This document shows positions 28,967-30,039 of a stretch of DNA of 64,000 bases, one piece after another (positions within the stretch are counted from its first letter, which is position 1; the number at the start of each line of letters is the position of its first letter). The stretch lies in NCBI GenBank assembly GCA_050250895.1, contig JBFWNU010000001.1, positions 2,214,210 through 2,278,209 on the forward strand. Reading direction: 5' to 3'. Source of the stretch: Vulcanimicrobiota bacterium (GTDB taxonomy: Bacteria > Vulcanimicrobiota > Xenobia > Xenobiales > JADMJV01). Under the pieces are notes generated by a model. The model saw only the letters and a program-made list of their open reading frames with translations. It was not told the DNA's origin and ran no database searches. The position numbers and the translations under genes are program-made.

Positions 28967-30039
28967 TTACCGGTGAAGCTGCTTGGTCACGATGCCGTCG
29001 GCGAAGGCCTGCCGGATCGACAGGATGTCGGGGAGGGCTCGAAAGAAAGCGTCCACTACCTCAGGGTCGAAGTGGCTGCCGCTGCAACGGCGGATTTCTT
29101 CCAGGGCGTCTTCGACGGCCCAGGCTTGTTTGTAAGGGCGCTCCGAGACGAGCGCGTCGAAGACATCCGCGATGGCCACGATGCGACCTTCCAGTGGAAT
29201 CCCAGTGCCTTCCAGTCCCTCCGGATACCCCTGACCGTTCCATTTCTCGTGATGGGTGCGGGCGATGGTTTCGGCCATCTGCAACACCGGAGAGTTGCTG
29301 CCCGAGAGCAGATCGGCTCCGATACGGCAGTGGGACTTCATGAGCGTCCACTCCTCGGCCGTCAGTTTGCCGGGCTTGAGCAGGATGTTATCGGGGATGC
29401 CGATTTTTCCAATATCGTGCATCGGGCTGGCCCACAGCAGCCGATCGCAGTGCTCTTCACTCAAGCCCAGTTGGATGGCCACCAGTTCGCAATACTGGCT
29501 CATTCGCAAAATGTGGTTGCCCGTGTCGTCGTCGCGGTACTCGGCGGCCGCCATCAATCGCTGGATGATCTCTAGTTTGCTCTCTTCCACCTCGCGTGTA
29601 CGCAGGCGGACCAGTTCGTCAAGTTCCTGGTTGTGGCGTTTGAGGGCGGCGTGGAGCCGGCGCACCTCGAGATAACCCTTGACCCGCGCGGTGAGTTCCA
29701 CCGGATCGCACGGCTTGGTCAAAAAGTCCCGAGCCCCCCCTCGAGGGCATGCAGTCGAGTGTCGCGGCCCCCTTCCCCAGTGAGCACAATGACCGGCACG
29801 GCTATTAGTCGCTCTGCATCCTGCTCGCGCAGCGCGTCGAGAATCTCGAATCCAGATACGCCGGGCATGTTGATGTCGAGAATGACCAGATCCGGCTCCA
29901 GATCGGCAAAAACATCAAGGGCTCGAGTGGGGTCGCTGCAGGTGGTGACGTGGCTAAGGCCCGCGCGCGACAGTTGCCGGACCAGAACGTTACAGACGGC
30001 TTCCTCATCATCGATAATGAGGATCTTGGCGTGCTCCAT
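28967..30039 (-). pseudogene. REC-HD-GYP response regulator (RpfG-like) split by a -1 frameshift in a C7 homopolymer
   Basis: ORF 29719..30039 is a receiver ending ...HALEGGLGTF*. ORF 28967..29722 begins MTKPCDPVEL..., which is the receiver C-terminus, and continues into HD-GYP (HDIGKIGIP ... WNGQGYP). Adding one base to the run of 7 C (plus strand 29734-29740) restores ...LEGGARDFLTKPCDPVELTARV... in frame. Confidence 0.6.

What the first reader, a model, noticed from the sequence alone, without database searches (positions are those of the whole stretch)
29719..29742. Frameshift in a C7 homopolymer splits a REC-HD-GYP (RpfG-like) gene
The receiver ORF ends ...HALEGGLGTF* and the HD-GYP ORF begins MTKPCDPVEL..., which is the receiver C-terminus. 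Reading the run of seven C (plus strand 29734-29740; G7 on the coding strand) as eight restores LEGGARDFLTKPCDPVELTARVKGYLEVRRL in a single frame. Options are a sequencing or homopolymer error, a recent pseudogenisation of the output enzyme of the chemosensory operon, or a slipped-strand phase-variable switch.
Basis: seen in the sequence. Interest (0 to 1): 0.5.

Follow-up and report, generated by a model that had tools for sequence, protein, structure and literature searches.

The report
One-base slip splits a signalling gene
A response-regulator/c-di-GMP-phosphodiesterase gene in an uncultured landfill bacterium is broken by loss of one G from a run of eight, and because the intact version occurs in an otherwise identical copy of the same strain from a sibling Illumina metagenome, this is most likely a real, very recent on/off mutation at a slippery site rather than anything exotic.

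Summary
On the minus strand a G7 run (29734-29740) shifts the frame inside the receiver domain of a REC-HD-GYP gene (28967-30039). One extra G gives a 357-aa protein with a complete receiver profile. That repaired protein is identical to a database protein (P0121) from the same strain.

The source is a Vulcanimicrobiota (Eremiobacterota) genome. Two Illumina HiSeq metagenomes from one Californian landfill were assembled independently. Their contigs (21,834 and 21,833 bp) were compared over 14.4 kb and differ only at this site: 8 G in run SRR27751815, 7 G in run SRR27751816. The window matches the 7-G run exactly over 33 kb.

An identical GAGGGGGGGGC context in the uridine-kinase gene (58222) is called as 8 G and is in frame. 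No other homopolymer of 7 or more bases breaks a frame.

The tract is lineage-specific: the 87% ortholog reads GGT GGA, and 54 family members have runs of 5 or fewer. Long G/C runs are depleted in the window, and no frameshift-stimulating RNA structure follows the tract.

Best reading: a genuine slipped-strand G8-to-G7 allele that inactivates or deregulates the enzyme and coexists with the intact allele. Adaptive phase variation is possible but unproven. An assembly artefact is less likely, and programmed frameshifting is unlikely. The case is ordinary in kind and modestly interesting.

The parts
29734..29740 (-). G7 homopolymer (C7 on the plus strand). This is the frameshift site. It is the derived allele of a G8 tract that encodes Glu-Gly-Gly-Ala (GAG GGG GGG GCT).
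   Evidence: L083 (run SRR27751815) has 8 G here and is otherwise identical over 14.4 kb.
28967..30039 (-). The whole REC-HD-GYP response-regulator gene, which would be 357 aa with 8 G. In this window it is frameshifted.
   Evidence: The repaired protein is identical to P0121. The HD-GYP half aligns to PmGH (4MCW) with E = 1e-56 and has the HD and GYP motifs.
29719..30039 (-). Truncated receiver ORF (106 aa). It lacks the conserved Lys of the 'TKP' motif and the final helix.
   Evidence: Response_reg profile positions 1-93 of 111 only.
28967..29722 (-). HD-GYP ORF (251 aa from a TTG that overlaps the upstream TGA). Its first residues are the receiver's C-terminus, so it has no genuine start of its own.
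   Evidence: A second gene caller chose a GTG seven codons downstream (P0122).
26473..28959 (-). Hybrid histidine kinase (REC-HisKA-HATPase-REC-HisKA-HATPase, 828 aa), starting 7 nt after the HD-GYP stop codon.
15990..26476 (-). Downstream chemosensory genes: REC (26063-26476), CheW (25572-26066), CheR (24241-25575), CheW (23763-24251), CheA-REC (21682-23766), CheB (20654-21685), REC-kinase (19048-20661), REC-PAS-kinase (17612-19051), MCP (15990-17603).
   Evidence: Precomputed Pfam hits on the called genes and Pfam scans. Coordinates were converted from L084, which is identical to the window.
30133..33217 (-). Upstream genes in the same orientation: an MVP_shoulder-domain protein (30785-33217, 810 aa) and a 199-aa protein with no family match (30133-30732).
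58222..58229 (+). Internal control. A G8 tract in the same GAG GGG GGG GC context inside the uridine-kinase gene, called as 8 and in frame.
   Evidence: The PRK profile (1-195 of 196) runs through the tract.

Best explanation
The window carries a genuine, very recent 1-nt deletion allele (G8 to G7) of a REC-HD-GYP response regulator. It arose by slipped-strand mispairing during replication at a lineage-specific G8 tract, one of only two G/C runs of 8 in the 64-kb window once repaired. The intact 8-G allele is ancestral and coexists with the 7-G allele in the same landfill population.

The shift ends the receiver after profile position 93, removing the conserved Lys and the last helix. That uncouples the HD-GYP c-di-GMP phosphodiesterase domain from phosphorylation control.

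The enzyme half is then either not made, or made at a low level without regulation by re-initiation at the TTG or GTG near the stop. Either way the 7-G allele removes normal phospho-regulated c-di-GMP degradation from the adjacent Che-type pathway.

Shown here: the frameshift, the exact repair, the ancestral fused state, and the presence of both alleles in otherwise identical DNA from two Illumina runs. Inferred: the slippage mechanism, the functional consequence, and the link to the Che pathway.
For: (1) Adding one G restores a complete receiver profile (1-111 of 111 against 1-93) and a 357-aa protein identical to P0121.
(2) All close and distant homologs are fused REC+HD_5 proteins. The 87% ortholog is intact and lies in the same operon.
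(3) Logan contigs from runs SRR27751815 and SRR27751816 are 21,834 and 21,833 bp long. Over the 14.4 kb compared they differ only by this one G, with no SNPs.
(4) Those runs are Illumina HiSeq 2x150 reads (PMC12607003). From general knowledge, this platform does not give consensus-level 7-versus-8 homopolymer errors.
(5) The window is 100% identical to the run-816 contigs over 33 kb.
(6) The same 11-nt context in udk is called as G8 and is in frame. Of 12 runs of 7 or more bases, only this one breaks a frame.
(7) Precedent: the C6/C7 tract in Bordetella bvgS (PMC1891110).
Against: I could not look at reads, so allele frequencies and coverage are unknown. The window's MAG and the run-816 Logan contig may come from the same reads, which would make them independent assemblers but not independent data. 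The window lies on a 3.95-Mb contig, which suggests long reads, and those do make homopolymer errors. Only two runs carry the strain. The 8-G MAG (154-kb contig) could not be retrieved as DNA.
Confidence: 0.62

Rival explanations
1. Sequencing or assembly artefact: the organism has 8 G everywhere, and the 7-G call in this genome (and in the Logan contig of run 816) is a homopolymer consensus error.
For: The window comes from a 3.95-Mb contig, which suggests long-read assembly, and in those assemblies single-base homopolymer deletions are the usual error.
Against: An Illumina HiSeq-only assembly (Logan, run 816) gives the same 7 G. The assembly calls an identical-context G8 correctly in udk. 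None of the other eleven runs of 7 or more bases disrupts a frame. The window matches the short-read contigs at every other base over 33 kb.
Confidence: 0.18
2. Evolved contingency locus: the G8/G7 tract is a selected, reversible slipped-strand switch that turns the c-di-GMP phosphodiesterase on and off, creating subpopulations (for example attached versus planktonic).
For: Both tract lengths dominate in different samples of one site with no other difference in 14.4 kb. Two of the four samples are the planktonic and solids fractions of one biofilter. The target is a c-di-GMP enzyme next to a Wsp-like Che core. Short G/C tracts in two-component genes can phase-vary, as in bvgS C6/C7, and a c-di-GMP PDE is phase-variable in C. 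difficile by inversion (PMC9286219).
Against: The tract is not conserved: the 87% ortholog has GGT GGA, and none of 54 family members has a run longer than 5 at this site. Runs of 7 or more G/C are depleted in the window (12 pattern matches, 11 distinct tracts, against 25.9 +/- 7.0 expected), so nothing suggests a genome-wide contingency strategy. GGG-GGG usage is near expectation (2 of 30 Gly-Gly pairs). The tract lies mid-gene rather than near the 5' end. Reversibility, switching rate and the run-to-sample mapping are all unknown.
Confidence: 0.15
3. Programmed recoding: the 7-G gene is decoded into the full-length protein by -1 ribosomal frameshifting on G GGG GGG, or by RNA-polymerase slippage that adds a G to the transcript.
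For: In the zero frame the run forms a formally perfect X XXY YYZ heptamer (G GGG GGG). A -1 slip would give exactly ...LEGGARDF... (read directly from the sequence).
Against: The 104 nt downstream fold no better than shuffled sequence (z = -0.76, with 46 of 200 shuffles as good or better). No ortholog needs or conserves a shift. The same strain has an in-frame 8-G allele, so the shift is not a fixed feature of the gene.
Confidence: 0.03
4. Natural two-gene arrangement: a stand-alone receiver and a stand-alone HD-GYP protein.
For: Gene callers annotate two ORFs.
Against: The receiver profile is cut at position 93 of 111 and continues in the other frame. The two gene callers disagree on the start of the second ORF. 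All homologs are fused.
Confidence: 0.01

Closest known systems
Bordetella pertussis bvgS poly-C tract (C6/C7) phase variation
   Same: A short G/C homopolymer lies inside the coding region of a two-component signalling gene in a high-GC bacterium. A +/-1 slip truncates the protein, and both alleles coexist in populations (PMC1891110).
   Different: In bvgS the reversibility and the phenotype (virulent versus avirulent phase) are shown experimentally. Here only two alleles in two metagenomes are seen. The target is the response regulator/enzyme, not the sensor kinase, and the organism is uncultured.
RpfG of Xanthomonas campestris and other REC-HD-GYP c-di-GMP phosphodiesterases (solved relatives: PmGH 4MCW, PA4781 4R8Z)
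   Same: Same domain architecture, REC followed by HD-GYP, with the HD and GYP motifs present. There is strong sequence similarity to the HD-GYP domain of PmGH (E = 1e-56) and PA4781 (E = 3e-37).
   Different: There is no Rpf/DSF gene context. The gene sits at the head of a Che-type cluster. The best NCBIfam model (NosR-family RR phosphodiesterase) scores far below its cutoff (177.6 against 400 bits). Enzyme activity is untested.
Wsp chemosensory pathway of Pseudomonas (WspA-F, WspR)
   Same: The core gene order is CheW-CheR-CheW-CheA/REC hybrid-CheB, with a c-di-GMP-metabolising response regulator in the same cluster. From general knowledge, Wsp is a classic target of adaptive on/off mutations in biofilm niches.
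   Different: The c-di-GMP enzyme here is a phosphodiesterase (REC-HD-GYP) encoded upstream, not a cyclase (REC-GGDEF) encoded downstream. The MCP is at the far end of the cluster, and three extra kinases and an MVP-shoulder protein are included.
Phase variation of the c-di-GMP phosphodiesterase PdcB in Clostridioides difficile
   Same: On/off heterogeneity of a c-di-GMP phosphodiesterase within a population (PMC9286219).
   Different: That switch is an invertible promoter element flipped by site-specific recombination, not a coding homopolymer. It is experimentally proven, whereas this one is not.

Membership tests
REC-HD-GYP response regulators (RpfG-type architecture) | Complete N-terminal receiver domain with phospho-acceptor Asp and conserved Lys | tested here: not met
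   In the window allele the receiver stops at profile position 93 of 111 and lacks the TKP lysine. The feature is met by the 8-G allele P0121 (1-111 of 111).
REC-HD-GYP response regulators (RpfG-type architecture) | HD-GYP subtype HD domain with HD and GYP motifs | tested here: met
   PF13487 HD_5 at 1e-34. The alignment to PmGH 4MCW shows MHDIGK and GQGYP conserved.
REC-HD-GYP response regulators (RpfG-type architecture) | c-di-GMP phosphodiesterase activity | not testable with these tools
   Inferred only from similarity to the solved enzymes 4MCW and 4R8Z.
RpfG orthologs (Rpf/DSF system) | Genomic and functional linkage to RpfC/RpfF | tested here: not met
   The neighbours are Che-type genes and hybrid kinases, with no Rpf genes found. 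No NCBIfam equivalog reaches its cutoff.
Simple-sequence contingency (phase-variable) loci | Homopolymer in a coding region whose +/-1 change switches the frame | tested here: met
   G7 against G8 gives the split or the intact gene.
Simple-sequence contingency (phase-variable) loci | Tract-length polymorphism among otherwise identical genomes | tested here: met
   L083 against L084 and the window shows one indel in 14.4 kb and no SNPs. There are only two samples, and no reads were inspected.
Simple-sequence contingency (phase-variable) loci | High-frequency, reversible switching | not testable with these tools
   This needs reads, time series or culture.
Simple-sequence contingency (phase-variable) loci | Tract maintained by selection (conserved in relatives, or long tracts over-represented) | tested here: not met
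   The ortholog has GGT GGA. All 54 family loci have runs of 5 or fewer. Runs of 7 or more G/C are depleted, with 12 matches observed against 25.9 expected.
Programmed -1 ribosomal frameshifting | Slippery heptamer X XXY YYZ in the zero frame | tested here: met
   G GGG GGG in frame. The match is formal only.
Programmed -1 ribosomal frameshifting | Downstream stimulatory structure, and conservation of the shift in orthologs | tested here: not met
   Fold z-score is -0.76. All orthologs are in frame.
Wsp-like (alternative-function) chemosensory clusters | CheW-CheR-CheW-CheA/REC-CheB core plus an MCP | tested here: met
Wsp-like (alternative-function) chemosensory clusters | REC-GGDEF output (WspR) | tested here: not met
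   No GGDEF domain was found in the cluster. The c-di-GMP enzyme is REC-HD-GYP.

The most novel reading that the evidence does not exclude
The G8/G7 tract could be a working slipped-strand switch that toggles the c-di-GMP phosphodiesterase of a Wsp-like chemosensory pathway. Attached and free-living subpopulations of an uncultured Vulcanimicrobiota bacterium in a landfill biofilter would then carry opposite alleles. This would be the first homopolymer-driven phase variation of an HD-GYP enzyme, and the first contingency locus described in this phylum.
Probability: 0.12. Interest if true: 0.6.

Novelty: new member of a known kind. Interest (0 to 1): 0.33.

Why it matters
For annotation, the two ORFs should be merged and flagged as one frameshifted REC-HD-GYP gene whose intact allele exists in the same population. 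They should not be treated as a stand-alone HD-GYP protein.

Biologically, this is a small, clean example of an otherwise identical environmental strain differing at a single hypermutable base that switches off a second-messenger enzyme. The public reads of four samples, including the planktonic and solids fractions of one biofilter, could show within an afternoon whether the alleles sort by lifestyle. If they do not, it is an ordinary recent loss-of-function mutation.

Tried and rejected
- **Exact look-ups of the 251-aa fragment** (from the window and as P0002) found nothing on record. The alleles were reached through the 90% cluster members instead.
- **JGI metagenome scan** for a 25-nt flank of the tract gave 0 hits.
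- **Genome-contig scan** gave no same-species genome. The best hit was 60% identical.
- **GC3-based gene calling** to find other frameshifts was too noisy. I replaced it with a per-homopolymer open-frame test.
- **Look-up of the udk protein**, meant to test whether its G8 varies between runs, found nothing on record, probably because the called start differs.
- **Retrieving the 50-200 kb contig** (probably the 154-kb MAG with 8 G) through neighbouring genes failed. It is counted in the index but no DNA is returned.
- **SRR-to-sample mapping** is not given in the paper or its supplement, so no allele can be assigned to the planktonic or solids fraction.
- **Programmed frameshifting** was considered and rejected.
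- **A natural split gene** was considered and rejected.

Full report
**1. The observation**

The plus strand has exactly seven C at 29734-29740, which is G7 on the coding minus strand. The upstream ORF (29719-30039, minus strand, 106 aa) ends ...HALEGGLGTF*. The downstream ORF (28967-29722, 251 aa) starts at a TTG that overlaps the TGA stop and reads MTKPCDPVEL....

- Inserting one G gives a single 357-aa ORF reading ...LEGGARDFLTKPCDPVEL....
- In Pfam, the truncated ORF covers Response_reg profile positions 1-93 of 111 (76.1 bits).
- The repaired protein covers 1-111 of 111 (97.8 bits), followed by a complete HD_5 (HD-GYP type) domain.
- The receiver domain therefore continues in the other frame. 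This is a frameshift inside a domain, not a gene boundary.

**2. Source and ancestral state**

- P0001, an intact 357-aa protein that is 87% identical, from an Eremiobacterota MAG.
- P0002, the 251-aa fragment itself, annotated on a 3,947,236-bp contig of a Vulcanimicrobiota MAG. This is the source of the window.
- 118 further hits, all fused REC+HD_5 proteins of 339-391 aa.

No homolog is naturally split. The 87% ortholog lies in the same operon (L081).

The 90% cluster containing the fragment also holds two other members:

- P0121, a 357-aa protein from another Vulcanimicrobiota MAG (154-kb contig) and from Logan run SRR27751815.
- P0122, a 244-aa fragment from Logan run SRR27751816.

P0121 is identical, residue for residue, to my repaired protein.

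**3. Both alleles occur in the same strain**

The Logan contigs from the two runs are 21,834 and 21,833 bp long.

- Over the 14.4 kb fetched, they differ by exactly one base, the eighth G, with no substitutions.
- The window is 100% identical to the run-816 contigs over 11,559-33,391 and 33,894-45,080, about 33 kb in total.
- The 106-aa fragment is on record only in run 816.

The runs belong to PRJNA1070006: four metagenomes from a closed Southern California landfill sampled in June 2019. They were sequenced as 2x150 bp on an Illumina HiSeq (PMC12607003).

The four samples are a leachate well, a composite leachate cistern, and the planktonic and solids fractions of one treatment-plant biofilter. 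The paper does not say which SRR number belongs to which sample.

**4. Artefact or real?**

The prior for a homopolymer frameshift on a megabase contig favours an assembly error. Four results argue against that here:

- A short-read-only assembly (Logan, run 816) gives the same 7 G, while a sibling run gives 8 G. From general knowledge, Illumina consensus errors of one base in a 7-8 nt run are very rare.
- The uridine-kinase gene contains the same context, GAG GGG GGG GCA, at 58222-58229. It is called as 8 G and in frame, and the PRK profile runs through it to position 195 of 196.
- Of 34 homopolymers of 6 or more bases (12 of them 7 or more) in the window, only this one shows one frame closing while another same-strand frame stays open.
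- The window agrees with the short-read contigs at every other base over 33 kb.

I could not inspect reads. The window's MAG may also derive from the same reads as the run-816 contig. I therefore keep about 0.18 for an artefact.

**5. Is the tract a designed switch?**

The evidence does not support an evolved or conserved device:

- The 87% ortholog encodes the same EGGA peptide as GAG GGT GGA GCT.
- Among 54 family members with a recognisable motif, the longest G/C run at this position is 5.
- Runs of 7 or more G/C are depleted in the window. There are 12 pattern matches (11 distinct tracts, because the G8 matches twice) against 25.9 +/- 7.0 expected, and 99 of 100 shuffles had at least as many.
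- GGG makes up 16.7% of Gly codons. Two of 30 Gly-Gly pairs are GGG-GGG, close to expectation.

So the G8 tract looks like an accident of synonymous codon choice. That accident created one of the two most slippage-prone G/C sites in the region.

The run is formally an in-frame X XXY YYZ heptamer, and a -1 slip would restore the protein. However, the downstream RNA folds no better than shuffled sequence (z = -0.76), and nothing about a shift is conserved. Programmed recoding is therefore unlikely.

**6. Context and consequence**

The gene sits in a minus-strand cluster in this order:

MVP_shoulder protein, 199-aa protein, REC-HD-GYP, hybrid kinase (7-nt gap), REC, CheW, CheR, CheW, CheA-REC, CheB, REC-kinase, REC-PAS-kinase, MCP.

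- The CheW-CheR-CheW-CheA/REC-CheB core resembles Wsp. The c-di-GMP enzyme, however, is a phosphodiesterase rather than a cyclase.
- Linkage to the Che genes is conserved only in the 87% relative. 'Output of the chemosensory pathway' is therefore an inference.
- The HD-GYP half is highly similar to the solved c-di-GMP phosphodiesterases PmGH (4MCW, E = 1e-56) and PA4781 (4R8Z), with the HD and GYP motifs intact.
- No NCBIfam equivalog reaches its cutoff.
- In the 7-G allele the receiver loses its conserved Lys and final helix.
- The enzyme half has no agreed start codon. Two gene callers chose different ones.
- The likely outcome is loss of the enzyme, or low unregulated expression by re-initiation at the overlapping TTG. 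This is inference.
- A second REC-REC-HD-GYP paralog lies 14 kb away (13006-14577). It may buffer the loss.

**7. Comparison with known cases**

- The closest precedent in mechanism is the C6/C7 tract in Bordetella pertussis bvgS. It is a short G/C run inside a two-component gene of a high-GC bacterium that truly phase-varies (PMC1891110).
- Phase variation of a c-di-GMP phosphodiesterase is known in C. difficile, but through an invertible element (PMC9286219).
- A literature search for HD-GYP together with 'phase variation' and 'homopolymeric' found no example of a homopolymer-switched HD-GYP gene.

**8. Verdict**

| Explanation | Confidence |
|---|---|
| Real, recent slipped-strand G8-to-G7 allele, segregating with the intact allele | 0.62 |
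| Assembly or sequencing artefact | 0.18 |
| Adaptive, reversible phase-variable switch | 0.15 |
| Programmed recoding | 0.03 |
| Natural split gene | 0.01 |

The case is ordinary in kind: a new member of a known class of homopolymer frameshift polymorphisms. One useful point is that public reads from planktonic and solids fractions of one biofilter could test directly whether the alleles sort by lifestyle.

Noticed in passing
window 33295-33930: An intergenic nested tandem array: 27-nt units (consensus GGGAGCCCTGCGCTTCGCTTGGGAGAG) organised in about three copies of a 187-nt higher-order repeat (93% matches). It lies between the fabH-like gene and the MVP-shoulder gene. Both Logan contigs end inside it. 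It generates many spurious ORFs on both strands. There are no spacers, so it is not a CRISPR array.
   Followed up: partly
window 30785-33217 (-): An 810-aa protein with a major-vault-protein shoulder domain (PF11978) heads the chemosensory cluster. It is conserved at 92% identity in the related MAG (L081). This is an unusual partner for Che genes.
   Followed up: no
window 13006-14577 (+) and 14621-16024 (+): A second HD-GYP regulator with two receiver domains (523 aa), followed by a histidine kinase with an ethylene-receptor-like N-terminal domain (PF25487 ETR1_N, 1.7e-25) plus PAS. The pair converges on the MCP gene.
   Followed up: no
window 58219-58231 (+): The uridine-kinase gene carries the same GAGGGGGGGGC (E-G-G-A) context as the intact allele of the finding. 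It is a second G8 tract in an apparently intact gene and a potential second slippage hotspot. Its state in the other runs could not be checked.
   Followed up: partly
window 9649-10485 (-): A DHH/DHHA1-family protein (278 aa, weak Pfam hits) lies near the c-di-GMP genes. From general knowledge, this family includes NrnA-type oligoribonucleases. This was not examined further.
   Followed up: no
window about 3784-6345 (+) versus 4380-5867 (-): A roughly 850-codon open frame on the plus strand overlaps a 496-codon coding-like ORF on the minus strand. This is probably a high-GC shadow ORF, but I did not resolve which strand is coding.
   Followed up: no
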